DNA of 60,584 nt, counting the filler, from Bipalium vagum (taxonomy: Eukaryota): NCBI GenBank assembly GCA_037834085.1. It is 3 parts of 3 records of this genome, joined end to end, with 100 filler letters (N's around TTAATTAATTAA, not from the genome) between each part and the next. Parts side by side here need not be neighbours in the genome. Positions count along the whole stretch, not along the records: positions 1 to 24,786 come from JBBMKC010198720.1; positions 24,887 to 42,861 come from JBBMKC010044957.1; 1 more part is not named here. The stretch is one strand, 5' to 3'. The notes below the pieces were generated by a model. The model did no database searches. It worked only from the letters and a program-made list of their open reading frames with translations, and was not told where the DNA came from. The position numbers and the translations under genes were made by a program. This document shows positions 18,871-51,926 of the stretch, piece by piece (the stretch's first letter is position 1; every line of letters begins with the position of its first letter).

Positions 18871-19533
18871 CAGGTTGAGTCAAAAGTTATTCATGTTTTT
18901 TAAGCAAATACTTTATTTACAATTATTTTTAACGCAGATCACATTAATCCTGGAAATATAGTTCATTAGTTTTTATAACTTGAAGCCATCTTTCTACCAA
19001 TTGCTCAGTTCCATGGCAATACCGCTCAGATTGTTTGAGACAAAGAATTCGGCTATTCCATGTTTGAGCTCTTCCTCTGGTCCAAAGCGTATCAGGTGCT
19101 TGTACTGCGCTGCTGCTCTACTAGGGCAAAAAACTCTTCCTTATTCACCACCGATGGTCGAGCTGAACCTTCCTGATCTTCAAGACCGGTATCTACCTGG
19201 TTAAAGCGACGAAACCACCACTGCGCTGTATTTTCCTTTAGCACATCCTTGCCTTCCAAGTCACAAATTTCTCGAATCGCAGCTGCAGCTGATAGATCTT
19301 TTTTTCAATAATGACGTAATAGGAGCCGAATTACTGTTTTTCCTTCAATCATTCTAGCTGTAAAATTAAATGAATGGAATTTTATAAATTTTACTTTTTA
19401 AAATGTAATTACATTCTCCTTTGCAAAGGCTTTTAAATGATACCATTTTTTTAATATAAATATTATTGTTAAATGATATGGTAAAACAAGAAGTGTAAAT
19501 AACTAAAACATGAATAACTTTTGACTCAACCTG
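18871..19533 (-). mobile_element. Internally deleted mariner element with perfect 29-bp TIRs
   Basis: CAGGTTGAGTCAAAAGTTATTCATGTTTT at 18871-18899 and its exact reverse complement at 19505-19533. It encodes a disrupted N-terminus (IRLLLRHY...AAAAIREICDLEG...AQWWFRRFNQ) fused to a C-terminal scrap. Confidence 0.9.
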
Positions 19534-20849
19534 ATAGTACTATCAAACGGACTTTAATTTGTTTAATATAAAAATATTTTTGGAACAGAATCTGTACTTA
19601 TCCTAAGGTTTTTATATTATGTGGGGTAATATTCGTGATCTTTTAATATTTTTTGCGCATGGATTTTGGTTGTTTTATTTTCTAACTGATTCATTCTTTA
19701 AGTTGTAAAGATAAAATTTTCATACTTTGTCTTCTTTTTAACTGATTTTCTTTTTGCCTCGTAATCTAATCACGAATCCATTTGAGTATCTTCTTCTGAA
19801 TTCATTAACACTTTAATAGTAAGCAATTGTTATTTTCTAATAAACAAGAAAGTTTGAATTTTGAAAGGGAAAATTATGATTTTTAGCTATGTATTTGTAC
19901 TGTTGCTTTACATGTGTAATGCTGCTAAGACTTGGAGAGTTTCAGGGAGTCCAGAGCTGGACGGATCGTAAGATTTCTTTGTGTGTCTTATGTCGGTGCA
20001 TGTGTAGTAAGCACATACAAATTAATTGACAAAGAATTAATAATGCTAGGAAAGGAATTAATTATATGTGAAATGGATTAAGTCAATTGAGAAAATGATT
20101 AATTCATATGAGAAATTCTATATAATCTAAATTTAATAGATAGTTAATAGTTAAATGATGGTTAACTTCAGTCCTTCATCCATGTTTGTTTAAAACGATC
20201 AATTTAATCCTTTTAATTTTGAAACTGTTGGCCTAATAAATTTTATATGTTGGTTTGTTTTCAAATTTTTTATGAATTAAATTTTTGCTAAATTAAACTT
20301 AATTAAACTTCTTAATATTAAGATTAACAAATACATGGTGTAAATATAAAAACAGTAAGATTCTACTCTTTAATTACGTTTAAAATTCTAAAACCTTTAT
20401 TTAATAAAATTTATAAATTTTGATTTGAATGTTTAAGATTTTTTTTCAAATATTTCATAAAAATTTAAAATTACAATTCATATTTATGAGCGTATTGAAC
20501 GTGCTCTAATCATAGCTATATTACAATCCATCATCTTAGTCCAAAAAGAGTTACACCAAGGATTTAGATATCTCATAACCAGAAGATACATAATTAAACG
20601 CGGGGTGAGTATGAAGACTCAAGCTTATGTAGATGCTCCAGCCTCTAATTCCACCATTTCTGTAGTAATCTATTCCTGTAAACCAGAAAGATGTCATTTT
20701 TGAATCAGCAATGTAATTCATGGGTAACCTAGAATTCTAATTAATATTGAATCTATACAGGTGGATACCGCATTAATAGGGTGAGTCATAAGTTGTAAAG
20801 ATCTTTATTAAAAAAATATGAAAAGCGTGTACAAAAAAATTAGTCAAAT

Positions 20850-21329
20850 TCAATCTTCTAAATACAATCCATTGTGATGCATTGTTACCATATTTTGGCC
20901 AGATTTTTTTTTATTTACATTCAAAGAGATTTCAACATTTCCAAAACGTGACCAAAATGTCTGTTGTAATGACACCCACAATTCATCAAGATTTTTACAA
21001 TTATTTCTATGACATCGCTTATTGAGGGAAGTGAAGAAGCCAATATCGTTGACATTTAAATCTGGAGACTGTACCGGCCGATTTATAACGGTAATACATG
21101 GAAAAATATTTTCTCCGAAGTCATTGAAATTTTCAACATTTTTCTTTCTCAAATGAGGGCGGGCATTATCCATTCGGATACTAACATTCGGAAACAACTG
21201 CATTTTTTTAGAGATTGGTGGCATAATTTCAGTAGTCATCAAATTGTAAAAATTGCCGGCTGTCATTGTGCAATCAACTATGTATTTATCACCTTTGTTA
21301 TGATTTTTGGAAGAAGTATATTTTTTCAA
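20850..21329 (-). mobile_element. DD39D-family (plant-mariner/GT-like) transposase C-terminal fragment with D-40-D spacing
   Basis: SSKNHNKGD...MDNARPH-(x)-PVQSPDLNVNDIGFFTSL. There are 40 residues between the D of DNARPH and the D of NVND. SPDLNV.D.GFF is the DD39D-type signature. Confidence 0.75.
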
Positions 21330-21574
21330 TTTAAATTTTTTTTTTAATTTTACAAATATTGAATAAACCCAATTTTGTCTTGATATTTATTAAGCATTTT
21401 ATTATTATAAAAATGACTGAAAAATGGTATTGTGAAATTTGTGAAAAAATATTCCAAAAATATAATAAATCAAATCATTTAATACAGACGTACATTTTAA
21501 AAAAGTACTAATGAAAAAAGTATTAATAAAAGTACTATTCAAAAAATAAAAGAAAGATATCCAAAATATTTTAT

Positions 21575-21938
21575 AAAAAACAGGCGACGACATTCAATCA
21601 ACAATTACAAATAATATATATTTTAAATAAATTTACAACAGGGAAATATCCAGGAGCATTACATTTAAAATCTTTAAATCCTTTTAATAAAACAAACGAG
21701 GTCGCAAATTTCTGTGGGCCAGGGTCACATATTGATAAAAGATTAGAGAACTATAATGAAATAATAGAAAATTACAATGAAACTGGAAAACTAGATATAC
21801 CTCTAATTTCGAAACCTGATTCAAATCCAATAAATAGAGTTGATCAAGCTGCAATCAAACATGATGTAAAATATATTTCCAAAGATTTAAAAGATAGACG
21901 TATTGCTGATGTTGACATGACATCTAAACGAAGATAGA
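21575..21938 (+). pseudogene. Parvovirus-VP1-type phospholipase A2 domain protein (Polinton PLA2X-like)
   Basis: GKYPGALHL...NFCGPGSHIDKRL...NPINRVDQAAIKHDVKY...DRRIAD shows the GPG Ca-loop plus the HD and D catalytic motifs. The start codon and C-terminus are disrupted. Confidence 0.85.
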
Positions 21939-22087
21939 TATAACAAATCTGTTAGAGCATTGTTATGGTAAATAGACTATGCTCTGTTCAACGATGTCAT
22001 CATCTTTTTAGTAGGATACTTCCTTCATTATGAAAATAAGTTATTTGATAATACTAATTAAAACAATATTAAATTTTTTCTATAAAA

Positions 22088-22682
22088 ATGGGTGAACTAA
22101 TTGAACAAACATTACAAAACATTATTGATGAGAAAAAACTAATATATATAGCTTTCAATGGAGAAAAATATTATCTATCTAAAAAATAATTAATGAACTT
22201 AGTGATAAAATTGCTGAAAAAGAAAGAGGAGTACTTCCATCAATTCAAATTCTTGGAGCAATCTTTGCAGGTTTAGGTGCAGCTGGTAAAGTTGAAGGTG
22301 GAGTTGCAACAAATGTTCAAAAAGCAAAAAAATAATAAAATACAGATTTAGAAAAAAAGAAATTAGAAATGGAAATTGATAAACTCAGCAAAGCTAATAG
22401 AACCGTAGGTGAACTGAAACCGATTGAAGCTCTCAACACTAAAGGTGTACCAAAAGAAGTATCAACTGGACCTGGACTTTATTATGACCCTCCTAAAGGT
22501 GGTATACTTATGTATAATGCATATTTTGGGAAAGGATTAAGAGATTCAATTTTAAATAGTTTAGAATATGATAATTTAGATAAATCTGATAAAAAAATGA
22601 AAAGAATTATTTTAAAAAATCGAGTAAGGATAAAATTACGATTGTAAAACAAGGAAATGGTTTATACTTTGACAGGGCGTAG
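22088..22682 (+). pseudogene. Polinton Gly-rich core/membrane-active protein remnant
   Basis: GVLPSIQILGAIFAGLGAAGKVEGGVA hydrophobic Gly/Ala helix followed by repeated GxGL(Y) motifs (GPGLYY, GKGL, GNGLY), with frameshifts. Confidence 0.65.
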
Positions 22683-22782
22683 GCCTTGACAACTTTGTTG
22701 AACCCCTACAAAAAGGAGTAAAAATATTTTTCTAAATTTTATTTTAAAAATTATTTTAAATTTATTTGAATTCTTCTGTAAA

Positions 22783-23190
22783 TATGAAATTAATACAACT
22801 ACAAATTTTGATTTAATAGATATAGCTAAAGACTTAGAAATCCCCTTAAAGATTTTAATGAAAGATGAGATTATTGAAAAAAGGATAAAATATGAAAAAC
22901 CTTTAATTATTAATTATCAAAATTTAAATCCAAATGGAATACACTGGGTTGCATATACAACGGTTATTACTTTGACTTTTATGGTTTACCATCACTTGAA
23001 GATTTAGAAAAACATGTTAAAGAGTACAACAAATTTGATGTGCAAAGCATGAGGACTTCGTCCGTTTTTCAAATTGAAACTGATAATAAATATTGTGAAC
23101 CATTAACTTTATATGTTTTATACAAATTATTTAATAATATTGATTTTTCTAAAATAATATTTGAGATAAAAGACTTCATCGTTACGCTCT
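22783..23190 (+). pseudogene. Adenain-like cysteine maturation protease
   Basis: TNFDLIDIAKDLEI...MKDE...IIN...GIHWVAY / YYFDFYG...Q...KYCEPLTLYVL. The His-Asp-Cys residues are in adenain order, with a 1-nt frameshift after HWVAY. Confidence 0.85.
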
Positions 23191-23283
23191 TAGAGGTAAT
23201 AAAAATTTTTAAAAATAAATGTGAAAGAGGTCGTTAAAACTAAAAAAATAATTTTACATATCTTAAAATTTTTTATTTTTATA

Positions 23284-24330
23284 ATGATTATGAAAATATA
23301 AATAATAAAATAAAAGAAGAAATTACTTTTATTCAAACTGAGCCTGAAAATATTTTTTTAAATGTTACTGGTGATGCTACGATAGGAATTATAAATATGA
23401 ATAATAATAAAATAATAATTGTAACTGATCCAATAAATGATAATGATGTTGTAAATTTAAAATAGTAATTAGAAAAAATAATTCTCTTTTATTTAATATT
23501 CAAAGTCAAGTAAAATCATATGAAGAAGAAAAAAATAGAATAAAAACTAAAATAAAAAAATTGAAATAGAAATTTTACAATATAATTCTGAAGAAGGTCC
23601 ACAAAATTTAAAAGAATTTGAAAGCAATCTTGAATTAGAATATTATAAATTTAACAAATACTTTAAAACACTTGTTGAAACAAAAAATGGGAAAATGATT
23701 TAATAAAGTCAAGTTCAAAAACAATTAAAAATAATATTAAAGTTGTAAATGATACTATCACAAAAATAACAAATGATAATGCAGGCTTTCATAAATTAAT
23801 AAACAATATTACAATTAAATTAAAAAAATATTTTCGAAGTTGATGATTATAAAAACGTGTGAAAAAATTACACTTATAGTTTGCTGGTATTCTTATTGGA
23901 AATCTTCAACAATAGATTTTATAAATTCTAAAAACTTAGAAATCAATATAACCTAGTTAGGGTATTTAATTGCAGATAAAACTTTATTATTAAAAAGTGA
24001 ATTTGCAATAATATTAGTTGCAGACAAAAATGAATACACAAACAACAATATTGTAAAGTTTGGAACAATAAATAATTATCATCTTTTCGGTTGGTATAAT
24101 ACTTATAGGAATTATTTTATGGTTGATATAAGACCTTTACAGAAAACATGTTAAAAGTTATAAAGGAACGGATATAATATTTTTACGTGATATCCATTCA
24201 CTTACAAAATATTACTTTGATTATAATTCTGAAGAAAAATATTCAAGTGAATGTAGAAAAATTAGTGGTAATATTAAATTAAAAATTTATTCAAGAAATA
24301 TAAAAGTTTTAGGTTTTTTTTAAACATTAT
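23284..24330 (+). pseudogene. Fibre-like protein remnant
   Basis: FLNVTGDATIGIINMNNNKIIIVTDPINDNDVVNLK resembles the GD-M-G-LNM-NNKI-N-DP-D-D-NK-YVD repeat of viral/phage fibre proteins. The rest is heavily disrupted. Confidence 0.5.
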
Positions 24331-24342
24331 AAACAATTAAAA

Positions 24343-24525
24343 TATGAATATAGTTCCATAGACTCAAATTTAAAATTAGGAAGTATTTTTATTGGAGGAG
24401 TCTTAGAAATTGGAACTGCTATTATGACAGGAATACCATCAGTAGGAACTAGTTTATTAATTTATGTTCCTGTTGCAGCATCAATTTTTGGAGCTGTACA
24501 ATTATTTATTGGTGTAAGATCTTGA
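24343..24525 (+). pseudogene. Small two-TM-helix protein remnant of the Polinton region
   Basis: KLGSIFIGGVLEIGTAIMTGIPSVGTSLLIYVPVAASIFGAVQLFIG hydrophobic segment. Confidence 0.4.
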
Positions 24526-24686
24526 TCAGTTAACTCTGTCATGGTGCAGATCATGTCAGCTTCTTCTGGTTCATATATAATTTCAATTATATTACTCTAA
24601 CCGGATAAAAGTCCTGCTTCCAAAGTTGAATGTTAAGTTAATTTTAAGTTGAATGTCGTAATAAAAGATAATTTTACATTTCTATC

Positions 24687-24786
24687 TATTAGGTTGTAAA
24701 GAAATAAACGGCGGTTTTTAACATCTAACTTTAAAGGAACACATGACAGCTTAAACAAAGTTTTATTTATCAAAATAGAATCCGCC
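24687..24786 (-). mobile_element. mariner terminal fragment running into a gap
   Basis: TATTAGGTTGTAAAGAAATAAACGGCGGTTTT TIR-like end, with the transposase C-terminus (GGFYFDK*) on the minus strand. Confidence 0.55.
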
Positions 24787-24886
24787 NNNNNNNNNNNNNN
24801 NNNNNNNNNNNNNNNNNNNNNNNNNNNNNNTTAATTAATTAANNNNNNNNNNNNNNNNNNNNNNNNNNNNNNNNNNNNNNNNNNNN
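24787..24886. other. Assembly gap with artificial TTAATTAATTAA six-frame-stop linker
   Basis: The 12-mer is embedded in an N run, with an identical construct at 42862-42961. Plain gaps lie at ~47927-48056 and 53760-54008. Confidence 0.95.
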
Positions 24887-24887
24887 T

Positions 24888-25140
24888 ATATTTCTTTTTT
24901 AGATAAACCAGAAACAAAAAAATCTTTTATATATTTAAATTCTGGTTAGAAAAAGTAATAAGATTATTATAGTTTTCTTTTCATAACATTTTATACAATA
25001 AATTTGCTTTACCAGAACCAGAAAGACAATAAATAGCATTTTAAATATTTGTGATAAATTAAGATGATGATTAAATTTTATAGAATTATCATAACCCTTT
25101 ACAGTTTAAGCTATAGGTTTTGAGAACTTCGTTCTTATTT
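24888..25140 (-). pseudogene. A32/FtsK-like packaging ATPase N-terminal remnant (Polinton-type)
   Basis: NHHLNLSQIFKMLFI / SGSGKANLLYKML ... SGLSKKEI is a degenerate Walker A in Polinton-ATPase-like context. It is frameshifted and truncated by the gap. Confidence 0.6.
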
Positions 25141-25453
25141 TTAAAACATAAATTAACATCGAAGCTGTACATTTTTTTTTATTTTTATAATACAATTTTT
25201 ACTTGTTTAAGGTGAACTGTGATTTTAAATACTTCTCCATTAAAATCTATTAATTCCTAATTATCATCATTTATATTTTTGTTATTAAAGGAAAATAAAT
25301 AAAATTTTTTAAAAAATCGGAAAATTTGGTTCTTTCAGAACCTTATATCCTCTAGGAAAAGTATTCGATGGAAATTCATAAATACTAGTAATACAAAGTT
25401 GAAAATAATTTATATTTAATTTTTCATTAGCAGTATAATCTCCTTTTATAATA

Positions 25454-26977
25454 CAATGCCGTCCATATGTTTAGGGCCACCCTGTAACTATCGAAATAAT
25501 TGTAGATTACGAATTATATTAAAAGTTTTATGATTTGAACTATGTTAATTTAGAAATATGTTTATATTATGTTTAAAACTCATTAAAAATTATTTTAAAA
25601 AATTATAGTATAATTATTAAAATAGATTTGCTATGTTAATGCGTTTTTTTAATTTTGATGTCATTTAAATATATAAACTATTTTAAGGATAAATTAAATT
25701 TTTATGTAAAATCTATATGTACAACATTTTGCTAATGCTTAAGTAATATATTTTATTAATTTTAGAAATTCTTTTGTTAAATATGGCTAAGATATCCATA
25801 GATATTCGGAAACTGGTGATTAAGAAATTGAAAGAGGGTTTGTCCCAGAGGAGATTTATAAACGAACTCAATATTTCAAGGAATATTATTCAACATATGA
25901 TACGGAAGCTGAAACAACATGAAACATTGAGAAACTTAAGTAAAAGTGATCGTAGACCGAAAAATACAGAAAGATCACTTATTCGGATGTCAAAGAAAAA
26001 TCCCCAGAAAACAGCACGTGATCTTCTTATCAATTGGAAAACAAGCCAAACTAACTCACTTAGTATTGTAAACCGTATTCTGAGAAAGTATGGCTTATCC
26101 GGACGAATTGCAGCGAAGAAACCATATTTAAAAGAGCGACATATAAAAAATCGTTTAAAGTAGTGCAGAGATTATAGCAAACTGCTTCCTTCTTTTTGGA
26201 ATGAGGTAATTTTTTCTGATGAAAGTCGCATAGACCTGTTCTCTAGAAGAAGACAATACGTTCGCGGACCGCGAGGATCAAGGTGTAGTCTAAAATATAC
26301 CACGAAAACGGTGAAATTCGGAGGTAATAGTATCATGGTTTGGGGCTCAATTCAAGAAGATGGCACCAGAGCTGGTAAAGTGTCCGGATCGGATGAATTC
26401 TGATGCCTACAAGGATGTATTGAAGAGAGGATTGCAACAAGACGGAGTTCCATGCTACAAATCAAAATTGGTCTTCTTTTTTGGACATGAAAAAAATCTG
26501 CGTAATCAGTGATTGGCCTGCACAATCGCCAGATTTGAATATAATTGAGCCTTTATGTGTTGACCTAAAAGCCAGAGTTCATAGCTGTAGGCCGAAAAAT
26601 ATTGAGGCACTGCGGAAGAATTTGGACAATCAGTGGGCAATGATGCAAGAGGTCATTAAAAATAAAGGTATGAGTACAAGGTACTGAATTCGAGTATCGC
26701 GATTGTTCATGAGGTTGACTTTTATTATTATGTGTTTGATCATTTGAAATGTAAATAAAAAATATTTTATTGACGTTTTAGTCTTGTATTCAAAATGACT
26801 TAAAAATTGATGTTTCTGAACAAATCGGTTTTTCTACATTTACAAAAATTTTACTTTGGGAATTTTTGATTGGAAACATGTACCAACATATTCTATCATA
26901 TATTTAAATATAGACAGTATTAAAGTACTTATAATTATATAATTTCATCATTTTATCTAAACATATGGACGGCATTG
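25454..26977 (+). mobile_element. Tc1 element with both TIRs and TA target duplication; transposase defective
   Basis: Perfect 21-bp TIR CAATGCCGTCCATATGTTTAG at both ends, flanked by TA. The transposase (25783-26687) has IFSDESR, MVWGSI, QQDG and DWPAQSPDLNIIE, with a stop at 26161 and deletions. Confidence 0.95.
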
Positions 26978-27579
26978 TATTTTCATTTTTATCTTTTTCA
27001 TAAACATTATTTAATTTATTATGCAATTTTTCATCTGCGGGCTGGATTAGATACAATATGTGAAAATATATTCATATTTCTACATAAAGTAATGGTTTTT
27101 ATATAGTAATAAATTTACTTGTCTTTCTTTTTCTTACAAGAAAACATTTATTTAAAATAAAATTTATAATCATTTGCATTAGCAAATCTTCGTCATTTTC
27201 CTCTGTTGGCTTGTTTTATTCCAATCTTTTCGGCAATCTGTGAAAGTAAATTGCTCATTGAGTTTACGGTCATCTCTATTGCTTACATTCTTTCATGCAA
27301 TGAGGACCCATCAGGATATCCATTTCCAGTTTGCTTCTCTTTATTTGTTCCTGGCAATTCCTTGAGAACTTCCTCTTTATGATTTTTCCAGACATTTTGT
27401 TAATTTATAATTATTACGATTAATTAAACAAATAATTCTTTTTTTCCTTTTTAAACTTCAATTTTAATTTTTTAAATTTTAATTTCATCTTAAAAATTTT
27501 TTTTTAAAAAGATTTTTTCTCTCATTTAATTATAAGTTTTTAATTCGCTTATAATATATGTTTTTATATATCATGAGAG

Positions 27580-28303
27580 GATTTGTTTGCAGCTCAAATG
27601 GAATTAATTGCAAATTATCGGACTTCTGATTTATTTAATCCGAGTCTAGTTAATACTTCATTATTCCTTGGATCCCAGGATCCCAAAGCGCTGATAACTA
27701 TTGTGTCCAGTGAGACAGTAAATTTTGTGTCCATCTCAATATTGTAAGATTTATTTTTGAGGATTATCACGAGTTCTTGCAGAACTTTATTGTCTCTTAA
27801 TTCTCCCTTCTTTTTTACAGTGACAGAGAACATGAGCTTGCGCTTCAGGTGCATTACAGCCTCTTCTACAGCTTACAATTTCCTTACGTAATACTTTATA
27901 TGGTGCGTAATTTAATTTAATTATATTGTTTCGAGCTTTTACAGCAAATATTCAACCGGGAGGCTTCCTTGAATAATGACCTTATTGGATCATTGATGGA
28001 GCAATAATGCATAACTTAATTGCCCTTGGGATTTGAATTTAAACCACGATCTGAAATATTCAATTCCTATGTTCATTTTTTTTTTGAACGAAAGTCAAAA
28101 TAGACTAACCTAGGTTTTATGGCTGGTGACTTTATCTCCATTTCAATACCCTGTTCGCCCAGCTTGAAAAATACACCAATATCAAATTTTCGTTTCATAT
28201 CAGTTATGCTCTTTCGGACTTTGGACCACCATGTTGCTAAATGTGCATCCTTATACTGTTTATAATTTAAACGCTGTATTGGTAATATTTTCATCAATTT
28301 CAA
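27580..28303 (-). mobile_element. RLE-type non-LTR retrotransposon (NeSL/Utopia-like) C-terminal fragment
   Basis: LDTIVISALGSWDPRNNEVLTRLG matches the GALGSWDP.N motif that follows the restriction-like endonuclease. TWWSKVRKS lies upstream. Confidence 0.7.
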
Positions 28304-29009
28304 AAAAATTTATGAAGATATTTTTTGTTTATTAAATTTTTAATATCATTTATTTTCAGTGGAAAATTAATATTTTTAAAATTTAATTCATTTATATATA
28401 TTGCATAATTACTAATGCGATTTGAATTAATTTCTACTGGAAATTAATGTGCCAAAATATAAATTTCTACCTCATTTTTAGAATTTTACATTTCAATTTT
28501 AGAATTTTATATTTCAATTTTATAAACTAAACATTATTATCATTATTTTTTATATTAAAATATGAGTTGATTTAAATGGTAATTTTATACATGATGATCT
28601 AATGATTAATCTTTCTGAAGTGAATTTTACCCAGATCAGGAAATTCTTTTTCTTCAACATATTTATGTAACTTTAAAAATATTATTATTAATGTGTATAT
28701 ATATTATGTATATTAAGAATTTTGTTTTTATCATTTATTATTTCAACTGGTTTAGATTAAAAATTAAAATCATTATATTTATCTTTCCTTTTATATCTAC
28801 AATTTAATATTATTTATTTAAAAAAATCATCCAAACTAATTGTTCAAATCACTCCTTTATATCCCCGATCTCCAGATTTTTTAAAACTTTCATCTCCAAA
28901 ATTTTTCCATCTGTATTTTCTAATCAATACCTTCTTCCGCGTATATTCTTTCGAATTCGGTATGGGTCTTTGTATTTTTTATGGTTCTCTTTCCTCTTCT
29001 CTACTCTGA

Positions 29010-29240
29010 CTAAGATGTCGTTGCATTATCTAAGTCAATGAAGCTAAGATACTTTGCACTACCCAAAGCATCTAGCATCCCATCCACATTCGGTATCGGA
29101 AATGCGTGCTTTATCGTCACTGCATTTAATTGGCGAAAATCCAAACCAATGTGAATATCTTTTTTCCAATTCTTAGACATGGAAATCAACATGTCGAAGG
29201 CGAAATAAATTTTTTAATAATCCCATTATCGTACAGTTTC
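29010..29240 (-). mobile_element. Ty3/gypsy reverse transcriptase fragment
   Basis: LDFRQLNAVTIKHAFPIPNVDGMLDALGSAKYLSFIDL matches the gypsy RT DYR-LN-T-D-YPLP-ID-LLD-L-A-YFS-LDL block. Confidence 0.88.
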
Positions 29241-30229
29241 TTGACGTCTAATATATCTTTCCCTCTAGTTTTATCGGTTGTCCAAACGGTTTAAGGTTAA
29301 TCGAGTTTCCTGTTATCCGGATACGGTACAGCCGATATGCCATTTATTGGCCATTAAAACGTTTTGGTTTTCTTTCGTCGCTCATGTTAGTTATACTGTC
29401 CTCTTAAAACCATCTCCTTCCTTGATTTCATTGCCAAACTTTTCTTCAAAATTATATATATATATCTTCTCTACCCTCTCCTTTATTTTGGGTCTGTTCA
29501 CAGTTTTCTTTTACTAATCTAAATACCTTCTGGATATTTATTCTGCCGATTAAATACAATCTGACTTCCACAAATTTCGTAACACCTACCAGTTTCAACT
29601 TGTTTCCTATACTTGGCAGAATTGAATATTTCCAGTTACAATAATTAAAAATAAGTTAAATAATTACATTAAATACATTCATTAAAAAATTCATCAAGTC
29701 TGATTAGTCTTCTCATAGTTTGTAATATAATAATAATTTATATACATTGAAATAGATTAACATTTAAAATAAAAACTGTCAAACGAGAATTGCAATTGAA
29801 GTAAAATAAAAATTTAATAATTTGAGAAAAATAAAAAACTTTTTGGTGAGATGCACATACATATTCTGCGATGTATACTGAGGAAAGACTAACACTTGTT
29901 TACATAAATAATTTTATTTATAAAAATAAGAAATAACGAATATTTGTTTAGTATATCATTAAACTTTAAATATAATTAAAGTAGCTATGTATCACAATTC
30001 CGCAATTAATATACATTTAAATTTTAACATTTTTACTTTATATCTTGTGAATCGTAGTGAGCAGATATGTGATTAGATTTCTATTAATTCTAAATATAAT
30101 TTATAATTATTATAATTAATAATTTAATTTTGGTTATTTAGAAATAAGATTTACACTCTAAATTAAGGCTTTGTTCGTTTGTTATACTTATTATGTTGTT
30201 AATCTTATTATTTACTAATTTTTTTAAAA

Positions 30230-33200
30230 ATGATTCAATTTCTTGGATCAAGCTTTCGAAAAGTTATTTTATATTAATATCTATTCCCGTATAATATTGA
30301 TTTTATTACACAATAGTCATTGCTCCATCAAATAAAAACTTCATCGCGATGTTTTGCGTCGGTATGCTACCTACATTAATTTTATGTGAAAACGATAATT
30401 AAGCTTTAATAGGTTCCAATGAGCCGGTTAGAACCGAAAACCCACCTTAATTACAAAAAACTTATTGATAATTTAGAAATTGTGAAGAAAAGGTAGCCTA
30501 CATAATCAAGAAAGATAATTTATATTTGCTTACAGACTGAATCGACCTTTGACGTTGTCTGAAAAAATACTCTATAGTCACTTGGATGATCCAAAAAATC
30601 AAGTTTCTACTATTAATTTTATATTTTTAATTTTTTAAATCTAGGATGTGGTTCGCGGAGAAAGTTACTTACGATTGCGACCTGATCGAGTTGCAATGCA
30701 AGACGCTACGGCTCAAATGGCAATGTTACAATTTATAAGCAGTGGTCTTCCCACAGTTGCTGTGCCGTCCACAATTCATTGTGACCACTTGATAGAGGCG
30801 CGTGATGGTGGAGTTGAAGATCTTAAACGTGCTCAAGACACCAATAAAGAAGTTTACGATTTTCTTTCGACAGCAAGTGCAAAGTTTGGACTGGGATTCT
30901 GGCGTCCAGGAAGTGGGATCATTCATCAAGTAAGTGGAATATTCATAATGGATCGCTTTAAAAATCAAACTTCGTCACAATTTTTCTAATCTAAACATCG
31001 GTAAAAACAGATTATCATCGAAAATTATGGATTCCCCGGTGTACTATTGATCGGTACTGACTCTCATACTCCAAACGGCGGTGGATTGGGTGGTTTGTGT
31101 ATTGGAGTCGGTGGTGCAGATGCTGTGGACGTAATGGCTGACATACCGTGGGAACTGAAGTGTCCAAAGGTCATTGGAGTCCACCTGAAAGGTTCTCTAT
31201 CCGGTTGGACAAGTAGCAAAGACGTTATTCTGAAAGTGGCCGATATTCTAACTGTAAAGGGTGGTACCGGTGCTATTGTGGAATATTTCGGATCGGGAGT
31301 CGATTCTATCACGTGTACGGGAATGGGAACCATTTGCAATATGGGTGCTGAAATAGGTGCAACTACCAGTGTGTTCCCCTTCAACAAACGAATGTCTGAG
31401 TATTTGGATGCTACAAATCGTGCGGATATTGGTAAAGAGGCTACAAAGTACAAGGTTAATAAGTATATTGATTTTTTTCTCTAAAAATTATAGTTAAGCC
31501 GATAATCACTCAAAATTATCGTGTTGATTTTATTAAACAAATTAATTTTTATCGATTATTTTGTCCTATTATAAATTAGCATATAATTATTATTTCTGCT
31601 CATATCATTATTATTTTTATTATTCTTTTTTTATTATGATTGATTTATTGGTATTATTTCAGGATGTTCTCCTGATAGCTGACAAAAATTGTAAATATGA
31701 TCAGGTCATAGAAATTGACCTGGACACGTTGGAACCTCACATAAATGGACCGTTCACACCCGACCTGGCTCATCCAATCTCTCAAATCGGGAAACGCGCC
31801 AAAGAGTATGGTTGGCCAGAAAAAATATCGGTCGGTTTGATTGGGTCGTGCACAAATTCGTCCTATGAGGACATGAGTCGAGCCGCTTCGATTGCTAAGC
31901 AGGCTGTTGATCGGGGACTGAAATCAAAATGTCCTTTCACCATTACGCCCGGAAGCGAACAGATTAGAGCGACAATCGTTCGGGACGGTCAGGCTGAGAT
32001 TCTGAGTAAATTTGGAGGCACGGTTCTGGCAAACGCTTGCGGCCCATGTATTGGTCAATGGGACCGTAAAGTAAGAGACTTTATCCTTTATGTAAATTAT
32101 CACCTTTATTAATCAATTATTTTCTAAACCATTGGTTTTGATTAGTGCAATTATATTATTTCTTTGTTGATTGGTATTGTTGTTTTATTTTTTAAAAATT
32201 AATATCTATGTATTGATTGATCTATGAGTGAGTATACGATTGACAAAAAATCGTTATTGCTTTATTTATCTTTAGTAATTATTCAGGTAATTAATTTAGC
32301 CACTTGACAACTAGACTGGTTCATTCTTAATTATTTGTCTATGAGAATCAATAATTGTATTGAAAATCTGTATTAAATTATTAACTAAATCAATATCTGA
32401 GTAGATTATGGATCTGGTTTAAAATTAGTAATATTTATTTCACTTAAATTGCTTTCAATTGTCTTTTTAATATTATTATGTTTCGTTGATCTTTATAGTC
32501 AAATTATTGGTCGATATATTATTGATATTGAGTGGAAATTCTCAAATAATTTCAACAAAATTTGATTCTTTAAATTTATTATGTTAAGGATCACACATAA
32601 TTAGTCCCAGAATAACATTTTTATTATTTGATGATATTAAAATGTTTAATAATTATCCTAAAATACCTAGAAAAAGTCTTCTTTTTTCATAGAAAATGTA
32701 TTGACTTATTTTATCATGAGAAAATTAAGTTTCGTTTTCTTTTCTTCATCATCTTTAAGTTTTTATAAACTACATTATATATCCACACTTATGATTGATA
32801 ATTAAGATTGAAAGAATTTTAAAAAATCGATTTTAATATTGAAATTTATAAATAAGAAACTTCATTATCATAAATTTCTTTTATTAACATATTTAAATTA
32901 TCAACTGAAATTGACTAATTATTAAAAATCAATTTTTAAAATAAAAGTATTTGACAAAATTAAAGGTTATTAATAAAAGTTGTTTGTTATCATAAATAAA
33001 TTGACTAATAAAGATTTTACGTTTACATTTGAATTTAATATTTTAAACTATTCTTGAAGTATTTTCCATTTTAAAGCATTGATTTACTCAGTGATGAAAT
33101 ACATGTCTGGTTGAGCTTTGTGCACTCACGGATCTGTTGTTATTTTGACCTATTTTATAAAATCTTTAGCTTAAGATCAATATTTTCGTTGTGATCCTCT

Positions 33201-36200
33201 TATTAAAGTTATTCTTAATTCACTATTCAATTCAGCTTAATAATTAGTGATAGATTTTACCTATTATTCAAAGAATCCTTTATATTTTACTTTGATTGCA
33301 TTTTCATCGATATAGAATTTTTTCTTGAAGAGCAAATGATTTTCATTTGCTCATCGGAACAGTATAAGTTTTTACTCTTTCTAAAAATTACATGATTGCC
33401 TAGTTTTTAGAATTTCTTCAGTATTCATGATTACGTGGTATGCCGAATAAGTACTGAGCCTATTGTATAGAAAGGTTAATGTAAATTAAAATATATTATG
33501 ATTATCAGGTAAATCGCGTTTTTTAAAATGTCTTTAGAAAATGTGCAATAACGAAGGGTCATTCGTTTCCTCTATTTGAAGAAAAAAGTCGAGAAGGAAT
33601 TCAAAAGAAATTATATGATGTTTACTGTGAACAAAGTCCTTTATGGGCTATAACAAAAAGATGGTACAATGAATCTAAAGCTGGAAGAACCCACATGGTA
33701 AACGTAGAAAAACCAGGAGGGCAAAGCGAAATCAGCGAGAAAATAACGGAAAACCTACATGAAATTATACAAAATGAAAGAAGAATCACAACAAGAGAGC
33801 TCATTGTGAGTTTAAATGTTAGCAAAGGTACTATTCAGTCGTTATTGGAAAGTAGTGGCATCAGAAAGTTGTGCTCACGATTCATGCCACGTTTTCTAAA
33901 TGGTGATATGCAAGCTTCTGATTTCTTTTGTTCAAACACCTCAAGCGGGAACTAAGAGATAGACAATTTTCATCAAAAGATGATTTGCAGAATATTGTCA
34001 CTGATTATCTGAACGAAAAATCTTCCGATTTCTTCAAAAATGCTTTCTCGTAACTTATCACTCGCTGGAAAAAATTTGTTGACGTTTCTGGAAACTTTAT
34101 ATTATGGTACATATTCATTGTTTATAATACAACATTTTTTGTGATCGTTTCTTGTTTTCTAACATAGGCTCATTAATTATTGAGCACACCACGTAAGTTA
34201 ATAATTATAATTGATATCACATATCACTTATTTATAATAAGAATGAATATGGATAATATTTTTTTAGTTTTGAATAATAAATATATTTTTCACTGGTTTT
34301 CATGTCAATTTTGAGCCCTAGATATGAATTCAAGTTCCATCAATAAAACAAAGGCAAATCTTTATTTATTTTCCTTTCATTTGAGATTTTAAACAATACT
34401 TATTTCCATGAAATTTTCCCAGGACGTGAAAATGGGTGAAATGAATACTATTGTTACATCTTACAATCGGAATTTTACCGGAAGAAATGATGCCAATCCT
34501 GCCACACATGCTTTCGTCACCAGTCCGGATATTGTTACGGCTTTGGTTATTGCAGGCAATCTCAATTTCAACCCACTTGTCGATGAACTCACTGATGTCA
34601 ATGGAAAAAAGTTCAAATTGTCTCCGCCAGTTGGAGAGGCCTTGCCTACCAAGGGCTTTGATCCAGGAAGTAATACTTACCAACAACCTCCTGGTGATTC
34701 GGGAAAAATCAATGTGAAAGTCGATCCAAAAAGTACTAGATTACAGCTTCTTGAACCGTTTCAAAAATGGGACGGGCGTGATATTGTAGATATGCCTATT
34801 TTGATAAAAATAAAAGGAAAATGTACAACGGATCACATCAGTGCAGCTGGGAAATGGCTGAAATTTCGAGGACATTTGGATAATATTTCGAACAATATGT
34901 TTATTGGGTGAGTCAAATATGACTATTTTCCTTTTGGTTTACATTCTTGACATAAGCTTATTGATATTTTGGTTTTACGAGTTCTGTCTTTTAAGTTTTG
35001 CATGTGTGCATACATAAAATATTATTATGTAGAACTAACGTTTATATTTAGTTACTAAGAAGTATAATTTTTATTTAAATATTTCAGTCTTGGTTTACAG
35101 TGACTATTTAAAAAACATAATCAATGAAAAAAATTGAATTCACGAGAGATATAGACAATTATAAAATTTGTATATAAAATTCACAATTTATTATGAAGTA
35201 GAAGCTTGTTGAAACTTGAAAAGTGAATAAAAGTCAACAAAACATATCTAAGCTCTCTTCCAATCGTTGATATTCTCAAACTAGTTACAGTTTCTGTATG
35301 TCTTTCTTATCTCTTTAAGAGAGAAAAGTTGAAACTGTGACTGATGTGGTCACAATGTATGATCAAAGATCGAGAACATTTTTATATTTTTATTATATAT
35401 ATTCCAATTGTGGATATCAAGATAAATATCCACTGTTATGATCTTTTCCTATAAATATTGATAATATTAATAATAAAAGAATGACAGTTATTTAAATTTT
35501 TGTGAAATTTTGAAATTATCTAAAAATATTGGTTAGAAATTTTGGGAAAAAAATTTATTTCTTAACAAATCGAATTATGATTAATATCAATTTTAAGGTT
35601 TACTGACTTTGAAAAGACAGAATATCATAACAATATTGAGAAACTGGTCGTTATTTTTATGTTTAAAAACTAGAAAAAATTCTTAATTGAACTTTAAATT
35701 CAATTCTCATTAAATAACAATTTTATTAATTTTTTGTGGTACTTTTAAATTGAATTGATCACGTTTTAGTTTACTTGGTAACTTCCTTTTTTTGTTAACA
35801 AAGCGAGTTTAAAGTACAATTTCATAATATATGATATGAAGCCTGGTTGTTATTCTGTTTTTATCATTTGAATAAGTAAAAAATCTGTTGCTTTTTAAAA
35901 ATCAATTACAGACTTCTATATAATATTCAAAGACAACTGGTCAGCCTACTTCAGTGCTATGGGGTGTGTTTCACATTAATTCCTTTGAAAAATGCAGGGA
36001 ACATAACACAAGACTGTTCAATTTTTCTTTTCTATCAGCCATAATTTCCACATTGGTATTTCTATCTTTCCAAACAATTTAAATAAGATCCTAGGTCTCT
36101 TTAGAAATTAATTATTACTTGTCTGAGAGATGGTTGCTTCTGAGATCCGTATCGTATAAAAAAGTCAATTCATTAGTTGAATGTGTTGGACAACAAAAAT

Positions 36201-37234
36201 ATCAAGTTACTCAAGTGTCCCAGGCATGGTTAAACAGCGCTTTTTCTATCATTAACTAAATGGTGATTACATTTGATCCTTTATAATTTTCTCCATCAAT
36301 TATTGTTTATCTTTTTTCTTAAATCGTTTTATCTATTTGCTAACTTTGACATACCTCCATCGATTCTAATTTATTCAAAGTTTGCTAAGAATTTTATGAA
36401 GTCTCATATTTTGTTTCATCGATATTTTGAAATACACACCAGAAAAGTGGAAGCAACAACCAAATTTATTTGCAAAAACATCGTATAAATTCTAAAATGT
36501 TTTTTTAAAAAATCACTCCATTGCTATGGAAAAATACTGTACCTTCATCCTCTAACAATGTTTTTGAGCTTTTATTGACCAAAAAATTTATCAATATATT
36601 TTCAGAGCTGTTAATGCTGAAAACGGTGAAGTGAATAAAGTCCGTAACATACTCACTGGCCAATGGGAAGGGGTACCCGATACCGCTCGAAAGTACAAAG
36701 CTGCAGGCTTGTCGTGGGTGGTTGTCGGAGATGAGAATTACGGCGAAGGCAGCAGTCGGGAGCACGCGGCATTGGAGCCGAGACATCTGGGAGGTCGAGC
36801 AATAATCGTTAAGAGCTTTGCAAGAATTCACGGTAATCATAAATAATTAATATCAGAACGAAACCGAGTTGTTTATAATTGTGTTATTAATTATTGCAGA
36901 AACCAATCTGAAGAAACAGGGTATGCTTCCATTGACTTTTGCCAATCCCGATGATTACAATAAAATCAAACCTGATGATAAAATTTCTCTCTTAAATCTG
37001 GCCCAATTTGCACCGGAAAAGGTGAATATTATTGATTTTCTGTTGTGCACCGTCTCATCTATTTCAAAATTAAATTATCATTTTTGTCCATTTTTTTAGC
37101 CCATCGAATGCCTTATCAAACACAAAGACGGAAACAAAGAAACTATTAAGCTGATTCACTCGTTCAACAAAAATCAAATAGACTGGTTCAAAGCTGGCAG
37201 TGCTCTGAATCGTATGAGAGAGCTCAAAACGTGA
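30230..37234 (+). CDS. ACO2: Mitochondrial aconitate hydratase, 11 exons, ~776 aa
   Basis: Exons 30230-30262, 30317-30361, 30413-30492, 30536-30602, 30645-30929, 31011-31454, 31663-32070, 34423-34907, 36606-36832, 36900-37021 and 37100-37234. All introns are GT-AG and the 2331 nt are in frame. Motifs: [26 protein letters not shown], the Fe-S ligands GSCTNSS and ACGPCIG, CTTDHIS and [12 protein letters not shown]. The N-terminus is a basic/hydroxylated presequence. Confidence 0.98.
33434..34193 (+). mobile_element. Internally deleted mariner-like element in aconitase intron 7
   Basis: Degenerate TIRs CGTGGTATGCCGAATAAGTACTGAGCCTAT and CGTGGTGTGCTCAATAATTAATGAGCCTAT, flanked by TA. The transposase N-terminus runs to [12 protein letters not shown] and joins the C-terminal [11 protein letters not shown]. 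Confidence 0.85.
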
Positions 37235-37677: not shown

Positions 37678-40600
37678 ATGAAGCTGTTACTTTGGTTTAT
37701 GATTTTCATTATTGTTGTTAAAAGTAAGTGGTTTTTGGGTTTTTTATTAATCATGTTTTGGAATATTGTAAGTTGTACATAACGGAAAAGCTGAAAAGAA
37801 ACTGCTGAGATTTTTGTTCGATCCAAAAAGACCTGATGCTCATAATATATTGGAAAGACCCATAAGTGATGACAAAAAACCACTCTATGTTTATATTTTA
37901 TTATATCTAATGCAGATTATAGATGTGGTAAGCTAACATTGGTGACTAAAATTTCAGTTGAGACTTTGAAGTTTAGGATGAGAAAAATCAAATTCTTCAT
38001 ACAAATGTTTGGTTGGATTTGGTTTGTTTTGTGTTTTTTAAAAATACTGAAATAATGATAAATAATTTTATAACCACAATCTTCTAGAAATGGAGTGATT
38101 ATCACTTTGTATGGAATCCTTCGATGTACAACAACATTAGTACCATCGTTATACCAGCCAATCGCTTATGGAGACCAGATATATTGCTCTATAATAGGTT
38201 TATAGTCTATTACTTATTTATTAGTCAAAGAATTATATAGCGCAGATGAAAGATTTGATGCAACTTTCCCAGTTAATGTTATAGTTAAACACGATGGTAA
38301 AATGCAAATGGTACCTCCTGGAATGTTTAAGTCAACATGTAAAATAAATATAGAATGGTATCCATTTGATACTCAAAAATGCATTATGAAATTTGGTAGC
38401 TGGACATATGAAGGGAGCCTTATAGATCTATTGTTTTATTGTGAAAATATGACAAATTGTAACAATACATATGGACAAGGAAATGCAGCTGAAATGATGG
38501 AAAACGGAGAATGGGATGTCTTAAGTAAACATCTATAAAATTATATTATTTATTTATTTCTGATTAGGTTTCAAGGCTGTCAGAAGTGTTATACAATATC
38601 CATGTTGTCCCGAAACATATATAGATATTACATATTTTCTTGAAATCAAACGAAGGACTTTATACTACACTTTTAACCTTATTGTTCCGTGCATAATTAT
38701 ATCAACTATGGCTTTATTAGGATTTCTGATACCACCAGATGCTGGAGAAAAAATATCGTTAGGTAATTCTTTTAACAGTTTTACATTTTCAAAAACACTA
38801 AATATAAAATATTTTAATATAATATAATTTTAATAAAATTACAGTGTAAATTAAGTGAATATCTGTGACGCAAATCCGTGCATGACTGGAATTCGTTGTG
38901 TAGTATTGATAAATTATTTTAAGATAATTACTGAACAATCTAACTGGTTATAAATGCCAAATTTATTATAGACAAGCCCTTAAGTTATTCTATCTATCTA
39001 TTCTTGTTTTAACTGGATATGATAAATTCAATATAATATTTTAAAAATATATAATATTATTACATTATATATAATAATATTTAAAATAATTTTAAAATAT
39101 TTCGTTGAATATTTTTTTAGTAATTTAAGGGATTTTTTTAAAAAAAATTATAGTTATACCAAAACTACTATTGTCAGTGATTATTTTTATAATATGATTG
39201 AATTTTTAAAGCACAATTGAAATATTTTCCGAAAATTGTGTTTAAATATTATTCAAAGGATATTGAATTATGATAGAAATTTGCATTTTACAGTGCTTAG
39301 TACGTGAAAAAAGATTAAAAGAGAATTTTATCACTTTAGTTGAATTAAGGAAATTGAGATAAATTTTAATGAAAAATTATTTGTAAGAAAAGGAAAGGTT
39401 AAGAGTAGTGCAACGAAAAGAGATATTCATTTAAATATATATTCATTATTCATTGCTGAATTAAAACTTAAAATCTAATCTCAATACAATCTTTATTTGA
39501 AAATAAAGAGACTGGTCTGGACAAATAGTAAAATAACATTTATATTGTATTAAAGATTTAACAAGTTTCAATATTTTTTTAAAGGATTATTTACTAAAAA
39601 ATAAAAATAACTTTCTTGGACTAAAACTAAAAAATTTTATTTTAATATATTATTTATTTAAAATTATTTATTATAATAAAAAAAATAAAATTTCTTCTAT
39701 GTCAAATTATATCAAATCATTTTTACAAAACACAGTGACTATTATAATGTCCTCCAATCAAATTTTATTATTTTCCTTTAACCGAAAAATAAAATCTAAA
39801 TTAAACCAAACAATCTAACTGTTTAAAATATAATTTTTTAATCGATATTATGAGATTCATTATTGATTTTTTGCATCTTTCTTCAAAGGTGTCACTATTC
39901 TACTATCTCTGACTGTGTTTTTGATGATGGTCGCCGAGAGAATGCCTCCGACGAGCGAAGCAATTCCACTAATAGGTTGAAATGTTTATTAGATTATAAT
40001 TATTACCGTTTCTCGTAGGAAAATATTTTACCTGCGTCATGATAGTTTGTTCGTTGTCCCTTGTTTTTACAGTATTGGTGCTAAATTTTCATCACAGAAG
40101 TTCAGATTCGATAGATGTTCCGGAATCGGTATATTTTGAAAATATTACTTTTTATTGTCATTTTTCGATTTTTTGAAATTATTTTATATATTTAACTGGA
40201 CAATATATAATTTTTGAAAGAACCGAAAGCAATTTTAAATTAATGATTTTATTAAAAATTTACAGAATTAAAAAATATTTTCAGTTACGAAGAATTGTTA
40301 ATGTTTGTTTGGCTCGTCTGCTTTTTATGAAACCTAGAAACAAGATATCTTCAGAACTATCTGATTCGGAACAATCCCCTTCGAATCTTGATCAATATAA
40401 ACGAAATGCCATATATAATCGTGCTTTTCAAAGTGGATCAATGAAAGGCTCTAAAAGTCTGTTGGCTAATGTTCTTGATATGGAAAGTGAAATTTGGGCG
40501 AGAGCTGCTCGATCTGTAAGCTTATCTTATCCTCATTCATCAGTAAATGCAAAATCTCAGCATTTTGAATCCGTAACCAGTAATGGTGGAATAATGGGAG

Positions 40601-40818
40601 AAGGTTTGCTCCCAGAAGGTCGTTCACAAATTAAAGAAATTCTCTCTCACTTGAGACAAGTGACAAGCAAATTAGCTGAAACAGAAATTCAAGAATTGCG
40701 AGCTAACGAATGGAAATTTGCTGCACGTGTAGTCGATAGATTTTGTTTAGTTATATTCAGTATTATTACTATTATTTCTTCAGCAGCTATACTTTTGCAT
40801 GAAGTTTTTAACCGTTAA
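37678..40818 (+). CDS. Nicotinic acetylcholine receptor alpha subunit, alpha7/ACR-16-like, cation-selective, 9 exons, ~521 aa
   Basis: Exons 37678-37723, 37773-37927, 37977-38021, 38088-38197, 38241-38524, 38568-38762, 39889-39975, 40019-40128 and 40285-40818 (1566 nt in frame). It has a signal peptide, [10 protein letters not shown], Cys-loop [15 protein letters not shown], loop B GSWTY, vicinal cysteines YPCCPETY, M2 [17 protein letters not shown] and [11 protein letters not shown] before M4. Confidence 0.96.
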
Positions 40819-42861: not shown

Positions 42862-42961
42862 NNNNNNNNNNNNNNNNNNNNNNNNNNNNNNNNNNNNNNN
42901 NNNNNTTAATTAATTAANNNNNNNNNNNNNNNNNNNNNNNNNNNNNNNNNNNNNNNNNNNN

Positions 42962-51696: not shown

Positions 51697-51926
51697 CAGT
51701 TGAGTCTCGATATAACGAACCTGTGTGAAACAAATAGTTGGTCGCACATCATATATATACAAATTAAACTTTGATACAGCAAATTTTGATATAACGAAAT
51801 TTTATGAAACATTTAAATTTACGAATTTTAAATTTACATAATAGTTATACTTCGATTTAACGAAACTTTGATATAACGAAGTAATTTGATCGGTCACTTG
51901 AAATTCGTTATATCGAGACTGAACTG
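51697..51926. mobile_element. 230-bp pogo/Tigger-type MITE, plus a partial duplicate of its right end at ~51994-52045
   Basis: TA-CAGTTGAGTCTCGATATAACGAA at the left and TTCGTTATATCGAGACTGAACTG-TA at the right, with several internal TTxGATATAACGAA repeats. Confidence 0.85.

What the first reader, a model, noticed from the sequence alone, without database searches (positions are those of the whole stretch)
21413..25140. Fossil Polinton/adintovirus-like virion module largely missed by the ORF track
Seen: six or seven tightly packed, intronless, frameshifted ORFs, including PLA2, a Gly-rich core protein, adenain (H-D-C), a fibre-like repeat, a TM protein and an opposite-strand Walker A ATPase. 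Known: this gene set is characteristic of Polinton/Maverick virus-like elements. Inference: this is an endogenised dsDNA-virus lineage of this host, and intact relatives may exist elsewhere in the genome or as free virus.
Basis: partly seen in the sequence, partly recalled or inferred. Interest (0 to 1): 0.7.

Follow-up and report, generated by a model that had tools for sequence, protein, structure and literature searches.

The report
Decayed Polinton-like virus gene cluster
This is a broken, roughly 4-kb leftover of a Polinton/adintovirus-type DNA virus that once inserted into an animal genome, a real but common kind of genomic fossil that can no longer make working proteins.

Summary
The cluster is real. 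One reading frame (stops read as X) searched against 1.84 billion proteins gave 41 hits: 25 to an adenain-type protease, 13 to a pX-type core protein, 2 to a two-helix membrane protein, and 1 low-complexity hit that I dropped. A profile of the protease homologues finds adenain (E 3.5e-5). A parvovirus-type PLA2 domain is weakly supported (Pfam E 7e-4). All genes are broken, and a Tc1 transposon sits in the putative penton. No pPolB, integrase, major capsid, TIR or second copy was found in the window, by insensitive tests. The gap is an artificial assembly spacer, and the DNA on its left does not read as the rest of the ATPase. Verdict: a dead fragment of a Polinton-like virion module, a well-described kind of relic. 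One modest oddity is that PLA2 and the pX domain are neighbouring separate genes here, whereas adintoviruses are described with a fused PLA2X.

The parts
21413..21937 (+). Broken gene: zinc-finger-like start (CxxC) followed by a parvovirus-type phospholipase A2 domain; four internal stops in this frame before the PLA2 domain
   Evidence: PF08398 E 7.1e-4, below the gathering score; zf-BED E 0.004 for the start; motifs at 21710 and 21860; stops
22088..22682 (+). Broken stand-alone pX-type, Gly-rich core protein; two frameshifts and a double in-frame stop
   Evidence: 13 of 41 phmmer hits, best E 2.1e-10; tblastn over three frames; homologue P0015 hits Pfam Adeno_PX at E 8.6e-4; profile of 12 homologues gives 93 bits on the window
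22756..23237 (+). Broken adenain-type (C5-like) maturation protease; His/Asp/Cys present; frameshift near 22960
   Evidence: 25 of 41 phmmer hits, best E 1.5e-11; profile finds adenain in PDB at E 3.5e-5 and ASFV S273R at 0.0066; 4 of 25 homologues hit Peptidase_C5
23244..24323 (+). Heavily frameshifted Asn/Lys-rich gene, probably a fibre or attachment protein (one neck-like motif, then coiled-coil-like segments)
   Evidence: Motif recalled, one occurrence; periodicity test; null in Pfam, PHROGs, PDB (best related hit the adhesin VompD, E 4.1) and phages
24313..24525 (+). Truncated membrane protein with a long hydrophobic stretch (two-helix hairpin); homology runs 24322-24513 and then stops
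   Evidence: P0003 E 1e-16, P0017 E 2.2e-6; alignment; hydropathy; low-confidence fold of P0017 resembles iridovirus proteins and SLATT-type 2TM proteins
24514..24786 (.). Unexplained 273-bp stretch between the membrane gene and the gap; not recognisable as the rest of either neighbour
   Evidence: 0 Pfam families in all six frames; no homologue aligns here
24787..24886 (.). Artificial assembly spacer (44 N + 12-bp palindrome + 44 N); true distance unknown
   Evidence: Identical marker at 42862-42961
24887..25172 (-). Probable N-terminal part of a packaging ATPase, with several breaks and a degenerate P-loop, cut off by the gap
   Evidence: By eye and recalled resemblance; motif at 25025, also found in 17 of 100 shuffles; null
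25185..25453 (-).
   Evidence: Two motifs at 25356 and 25253 recalled as penton-like; 0 and 1 of 100 shuffles, but the patterns were written after seeing the sequence; null
25454..26977 (+). Tc1-family DNA transposon inserted at a TA into the putative penton region; its transposase is itself broken
   Evidence: 25-nt perfect inverted repeats including the TA flanks; HTH_Tnp_Tc3_2 E 3e-12, DDE_3 E 1e-4
20853..21386 (-). Mariner-like transposase fragment bounding the cluster on the left (not part of the virus)
   Evidence: 178-aa open frame; DDE-type motifs recalled; Pfam gave no transposase family

Best explanation
A Polinton/adintovirus-like dsDNA virus integrated into the germ line of this animal. 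About 4 kb of its virion-building module survive as a dead relic, in an intergenic stretch full of transposons. SHOWN: homology of the protease, core and membrane genes to intact proteins elsewhere; adenain and pX affinity of those relatives; breaks in every gene; a later Tc1 insertion; animal flanking genes. INFERRED from what is known of adenoviruses, parvoviruses and Polintons: in the ancestor, the ATPase packed the linear genome into a jelly-roll capsid with penton vertices and a trimeric fibre. The protease matured the particle by cutting the pX-type core precursor at Gly-rich sites. The PLA2 breached the endosome on entry, and the membrane protein acted on host membranes. Integration would have used the element's own rve integrase, which is not seen here. 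The locus now most likely does nothing: no gene is whole, and the polymerase, integrase, major capsid and ends are lost or lie beyond the assembly gap.
For: 40 of 41 phmmer hits fall on three neighbouring segments and align collinearly across frame breaks. Protease profile finds adenain; a core homologue finds Adeno_PX; PLA2 finds PF08398. 11 of 13 core homologues carry a GG-hydrophobic-hydrophobic-P motif and 10 of 13 carry two or more GxG-type motifs; their reading as cleavage sites is recalled. PLA2X, adenain, fibre, FtsK ATPase, penton and SLATT are named on published adintovirus maps (PMC8502044 Fig. S2 text). Degraded endogenous adintoviruses are described there too (section 3.3). Long host exons in the same window are open (409 aa; aconitase), and in-frame stops plus a TA-flanked Tc1 are not indel errors, so the decay looks biological.
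Against: pPolB, integrase, major capsid and TIRs were not found (184 of 184 flanking stop-free stretches of 55 aa or more scanned; repeats). ATPase, penton and fibre have no database support. The PLA2 hit is below its gathering score. The membrane-protein homologue leans to Nucleocytoviricota in the Atlas and BFVD. The core-protein model matched nothing in BFVD at E 0.001.
Confidence: 0.87

Rival explanations
1. The cluster is a fragment of another kind of jelly-roll virus (an invertebrate iridovirus-like or other Nucleocytoviricota genome, or an integrase-less Polinton-like virus), captured passively by DNA repair.
For: P0017's best fold matches are iridovirus proteins (E 7e-5 to 1e-3). Two of its three nearest Atlas clusters list Nucleocytoviricota as the commonest taxon. 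The protease profile also reaches ASFV S273R. No integrase or TIR is seen.
Against: The model has mean pLDDT 48.7 and is all helix, so the matches are weak. The Atlas recognition value (2088) is under its 2300 mark, and its taxa rest on few members. Adenain scores about 200-fold better than S273R. A ~150-aa protease packed between a pX-type gene and a fibre fits mid-sized adintovirus-type genomes better (established knowledge; PMC8502044).
Confidence: 0.07
2. The left block is Polinton-derived, but the right block (ATPase and penton-like pieces) is a different insertion or not viral, brought next to it by scaffolding. This is compatible with the main reading for 21413-24513.
For: The gap is a fixed spacer of unknown true size. 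Homology breaks at 24514, and the next 273 bp are unassigned. All database tests on the right block were null.
Against: Two independent penton-like motifs and a P-loop-like motif lie head to tail within 350 bp on one strand, next to a verified virion module. Penton beside ATPase is a plausible order (recalled).
Confidence: 0.2
3. The cluster is an intact or recent virus (or a contaminating viral contig) whose frameshifts are assembly errors in AT-rich homopolymers.
For: The region is 19-29% GC with many A/T runs. The protease keeps its three catalytic residues.
Against: There are in-frame stops, a truncated membrane gene, a degenerate P-loop and a Tc1 with TA flanks inside the cluster. Long host exons nearby are unbroken.
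Confidence: 0.04
4. Chance look-alikes or decayed cellular genes (for example a Ulp1/SENP protease).
For: One protease homologue also hits Peptidase_C48 weakly. Low-complexity AT-rich DNA yields spurious matches (P0018).
Against: E values reach 1e-16 over three adjacent intronless genes, and reversed controls stay at or below 28.1 bits.
Confidence: 0.01

Closest known systems
Adintoviruses, now Eupolintoviridae (Amphintovirales, Polintoviricetes); PMC8502044; renaming in PMC12451622
   Same: Adenain, parvovirus-type PLA2, pX-like domain, probable fibre, FtsK-type ATPase and penton in a compact intronless array in an animal genome; degraded endogenous copies are known.
   Different: Only about 4 kb; no pPolB, integrase, hexon or ITR found; every gene broken. 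PLA2 and pX are separate neighbours rather than the fused PLA2X. Alpha or Beta class cannot be assigned without PolB or hexon.
Polinton/Maverick transposons (10.1101/2023.08.22.554363; PMC3671162)
   Same: C5-type protease shown; ATPase and minor capsid probable; later colonised by other transposons, as also reported for insect polintons (10.1101/2025.02.07.637071).
   Different: The defining pPolB, INT, 100-1500-bp TIRs, 5-8-bp TSD and 13-25-kb size are not seen.
Adenovirus adenain and core precursor pX
   Same: Protease profile E 3.5e-5; Adeno_PX E 8.6e-4 in 1 of 13 core homologues.
   Different: The protease is shorter (about 150 versus 204 aa) with Asp where adenain has Glu. The core protein is about 160-190 aa, with extra domains on each side of the hydrophobic segment.
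Uncharacterised two-helix membrane proteins of invertebrate iridoviruses; viral SLATT-type proteins; adintovirus GasderminX
   Same: Hydrophobic hairpin flanked by long helices; SLATT is named on Hydra and Stylophora adintovirus maps (layout read from PDF text).
   Different: The match rests on a low-confidence model of a homologue. No gasdermin, SLATT or pX Pfam hit for P0003 or P0017, so the name stays open.

Membership tests
Polinton/Maverick, Eupolintoviridae | Adenain-like maturation protease | tested here: met
   broken by one frameshift
Polinton/Maverick, Eupolintoviridae | FtsK/A32-like packaging ATPase | tested here: inconclusive
   Degenerate P-loop at 25025 only; null
Polinton/Maverick, Eupolintoviridae | Single jelly-roll minor capsid (penton) | tested here: inconclusive
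   Recalled motifs at 25356 and 25253; null
Polinton/Maverick, Eupolintoviridae | Double jelly-roll major capsid (hexon) | tested here: inconclusive
   0 of 184 flanking stretches hit a capsid family, but the same scan missed the element's own protease fragments
Polinton/Maverick, Eupolintoviridae | Protein-primed PolB | tested here: inconclusive
   0 of 184; low sensitivity on decayed fragments; assembly gap
Polinton/Maverick, Eupolintoviridae | rve integrase | tested here: inconclusive
   0 of 184; same caveat
Polinton/Maverick, Eupolintoviridae | Long terminal inverted repeats (100-1500 bp) | tested here: not met
   None in the window or in 19500-29500; the only perfect pair is the Tc1's 25 nt. 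So it is not filed as a complete element.
Polinton/Maverick, Eupolintoviridae | 5-8-bp target-site duplication | not testable with these tools
   Element ends are not identifiable
Alpha-class virion module | Fused PLA2X (PLA2 with C-terminal pX) | tested here: not met
   The PLA2 frame ends at 21937 and the pX-type gene has its own ATG at 22088; 10 of 13 homologues start at the matching place and 0 of 13 carry PF08398
Beta-class virion module | GasderminX and cupiennin genes | tested here: inconclusive
   No Pfam or fold match to gasdermin for P0017; the reference sequences in the paper's supplement lay beyond the held text
Nucleocytoviricota endogenous element | NCLDV core genes (family B polymerase, RNA polymerase, NCLDV capsid) | tested here: inconclusive
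   None among 184 flanking stretches; only the membrane-protein homologue leans this way

The most novel reading that the evidence does not exclude
The relic belongs to an undescribed animal Polinton-virus lineage, outside the Alpha and Beta virion modules. In it, the PLA2 and a stand-alone two-domain pX-type core protein are separate adjacent genes, a split or pre-fusion form of PLA2X. It also carries a membrane protein shared with invertebrate iridoviruses, which would record gene exchange between polintoviruses and iridoviruses in one host group. The 13 core and 25 protease homologues suggest that intact members are widespread.
Probability: 0.2. Interest if true: 0.45.

Novelty: new member of a known kind. 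Interest (0 to 1): 0.22.

Why it matters
It adds one more record of a Polinton-like virus having invaded an animal germ line, and it flags sequence that gene annotation should treat as a viral fossil. Specialists would not be surprised: Polintons and their relics are reported across animals, including a degraded copy in humans (PMC8502044) and insect copies carrying transposon insertions (10.1101/2025.02.07.637071). If the separate PLA2 and pX genes and the iridovirus-like membrane gene prove to define a lineage, they would bear on how the PLA2X fusion and Polinton entry proteins arose. That needs intact relatives, which this window does not provide.

Tried and rejected
Word-indexed protein searches found nothing for the core protein (57 candidates), the penton piece (5 candidates) or the penton-tail/ATPase frame (49 candidates). 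One search missed proteins that one search found, so these nulls carry little weight. PDB sequence searches with single fragments were null. The core profile gave only a repeat-protein artefact and adenovirus pX at E 1.6. PHROGs gave nothing under E 0.006. The phage collection gave no match for the fibre or PLA2. Two scans of the bacterial/archaeal genome collection for stray Polinton contigs found none (83 and 104 pattern matches, 0 confirmed). The Atlas gave no usable hit for the penton piece. The core-protein model (pLDDT 64, pTM 0.27) had no BFVD match at E 0.001. No second copy exists in the window. P0018, a repetitive 1080-aa hit to an out-of-frame stretch, was dropped before the counts. 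I considered GasderminX as the name of the membrane gene from recall and left it open. I considered the stretch 24514-24786 as ATPase tail, penton, major capsid or integrase by eye and found none convincing. Motif searches in papers and in the adintovirus supplement gave nothing useful. The host taxon was not determined; a flatworm was only a recalled impression. No tRNA genes were found. Unchecked: viral and metagenome contig collections, the organisms and gene neighbours of the 41 homologues, HHpred, and the rest of the host assembly.
Full report
SETTING. The window is 27% GC and is animal DNA with introns: an Egalitarian winged-helix gene (6476-7702, -), aconitase (about 30.5-36.9 kb) and an alpha-7-like nicotinic receptor (38.2-40.8 kb). 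Between them lie many Tc1/mariner pieces. The finding sits in such a stretch, between a mariner-like fragment (20853-21386, label recalled) and a Tc1. The host taxon was not determined.

THE OBSERVATION. Six-frame reading shows short open pieces that hop between frames from 21413 to 24525 on +, and from about 25453 down to the gap on -. Only four stop-free stretches reach 100 aa. I searched one + frame, 22183-24522 with stops as X, against 1.84 billion representatives. It gave 41 hits: 25 to the protease segment (best E 1.5e-11), 13 to the core segment (2.1e-10), 2 to the membrane segment (1.0e-16), and one repetitive hit to an out-of-frame stretch, dropped. Mapped back by tblastn, the 40 retained proteins all hit the element best, continue collinearly into neighbouring frames that were not in the query, and hit nowhere else in the window. 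Reversed copies reach at most 28.1 bits against at least 45.8. Three broken genes are therefore certain.

WHAT THE GENES ARE. (1) Protease, 22756-23237. A profile of 16 of the 25 homologues finds adenovirus adenain (E 3.5e-5) and, more weakly, ASFV S273R (0.0066); 4 of 25 homologues hit Peptidase_C5. His, Asp and Cys are present across one frameshift. (2) Core protein, 22088-22682. One of 13 homologues hits Adeno_PX (E 8.6e-4); 11 of 13 carry a GG motif before a hydrophobic helix, and 10 of 13 have two or more GxG-type motifs. I read these from recall as maturation sites. A model of P0006 shows two small alpha/beta ends joined by a long helix and matches nothing in BFVD. (3) PLA2, 21413-21937: PF08398 at E 7.1e-4, under the gathering score, with a zinc-finger-like start. 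(4) Membrane protein, homology 24322-24513: 58% identical to P0003. A weak model of P0017 (pLDDT 48.7) resembles iridovirus proteins and SLATT-type proteins, and Atlas neighbours are unnamed clusters with viral or mollusc records. (5) 23244-24323 is plausibly a fibre: one neck-like motif, not a repeat, and coiled-coil periodicity in 2 of 6 segments, with no database support. (6) The ATPase is a by-eye call: LSGSGKA is non-canonical and turns up in 17 of 100 shuffles, and searches were null. (7) New here: 25185-25453 (-) carries two motifs that I recall as typical of the C-terminal part of Polinton pentons. They are rare in shuffles, but the patterns were written after seeing the sequence, and searches were null. 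A 1524-bp Tc1 with perfect 25-nt inverted repeats and TA flanks begins right there. Whether penton sequence continues beyond it is untested (null).

THE GAP. 24787-24886 is 44 N, a 12-bp palindrome and 44 N, repeated exactly at 42862-42961, so it is an assembly spacer of unknown true length. Left of it, similarity to the membrane protein stops at 24513, and the next 273 bp match no Pfam family in any frame. The ATPase is therefore not visibly continued across the gap.

WHAT IS MISSING. All 184 stop-free stretches of 55 aa or more outside 21400-25450 (listed) were scanned against Pfam. None hit a protein-primed polymerase, rve integrase, capsid or A32 family. This is weak evidence, since the same scan missed the element's own protease halves. 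No long inverted repeat or second copy was found.

HOW IT WORKS. Most likely it no longer does anything. In-frame stops, truncation and the Tc1 insertion, beside long unbroken host exons, point to real decay rather than read errors. The ancestor's life cycle is inferred from known relatives: ATPase-driven packaging into a jelly-roll capsid, adenain cleavage of the pX-type core, fibre attachment, PLA2-aided entry, and integrase-mediated insertion. I put this at 0.87. The rivals are a giant-virus or integrase-less fragment (0.07), an intact virus with read errors (0.04) and chance (0.01). Separately, there is a 0.2 chance that the right block does not belong with the left.

COMPARISON WITH THE LITERATURE. 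PMC8502044 (passages; sections 3.1-3.3; the text of Fig. S2) describes adenain, FtsK, hexon, penton, PLA2X (Alpha module), GasderminX and cupiennin (Beta module), fibre and SLATT genes, and a degraded human relic. Its sequence file lay beyond the held part of the supplement, which bears on naming the core and membrane genes. 10.1101/2023.08.22.554363 (passages) and PMC3671162 (passages) give the Polinton core features. PMC12451622 (passages) and the taxonomy give the current family name. 10.1101/2025.02.07.637071 and 10.64898/2026.07.28.741253 (passages) show such elements, and transposon insertions into them, to be common in insects; their supplements were not seen. The locus is derived from this kind of element, but I do not file it as a complete member: TIRs were tested and not found, and pPolB, integrase and hexon are unshown.

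NOVELTY. It is a new instance of a known kind. The one departure is that PLA2 and pX are separate adjacent genes: the pX-type gene has its own ATG, 10 of 13 homologues begin at the matching place, and 0 of 13 carry a PLA2 domain. A search for papers holding polinton, SLATT and iridovirus together returned none, and searches listed no paper on such an arrangement. These were listings only and the library is partial, so this is not a claim that it is unpublished. The viral and metagenome contig collections, and the source organisms and gene neighbours of the homologues, stayed unchecked. Interest 0.22.

Noticed in passing
window 25454-26977: Full-length Tc1-family element with perfect terminal repeats and TA flanks but a broken transposase; it post-dates the viral insertion if the penton call is right.
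   Followed up: partly
window 24514-24786: 273-bp stretch with nearly open frames on both strands (2 stops on -, 3 on +, in 91 codons), 30% GC, no Pfam match; it replaces the expected end of the membrane gene.
   Followed up: partly
window 21938-22087: 150-bp spacer after the PLA2 frame that reads unlike its neighbours; no Pfam match in three + frames.
   Followed up: partly
window 20853-21386 (-): 178-aa open frame with DDE-type motifs that I recall from plant-type (DD39D) mariners; Pfam gave no transposase hit.
   Followed up: no
window 27577-27951 (-): Fragment with a CCHC-like motif followed by a region I recall from the endonuclease end of R2/NeSL-type retrotransposons; no Pfam support.
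   Followed up: no
window 28990-29460 (-): Fragment that reads like a Gypsy-type reverse transcriptase (recalled); no Pfam support.
   Followed up: no
window 27170-27410 (-): Frameshifted coding-looking stretch of unknown origin just beyond the Tc1.
   Followed up: partly
window 24787-24886 and 42862-42961: Identical 100-bp assembly spacers with a 12-bp palindrome; other gaps (47927-48056, 53760-54008) are plain N runs.
   Followed up: yes
P0013: A core-protein homologue with a cysteine-pair N-terminus and four tandem pX-like segments.
   Followed up: no
P0010, P0028, P0031; window about 23020-23070: Several protease homologues, and the window copy, carry short in-frame insertions of odd composition at differing sites, as if from small repeat insertions.
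   Followed up: no
window 6476-7702 (-), 30537-36900 (+), 38206-40815 (+): Host genes: Egalitarian-domain protein, aconitase with very short introns (about 40-80 nt by eye), and an alpha-7-like nicotinic receptor.
   Followed up: partly
window 49929-50030 and 51783-52050: A 37-nt hairpin and short dispersed repeats, probably miniature transposon ends.
   Followed up: no
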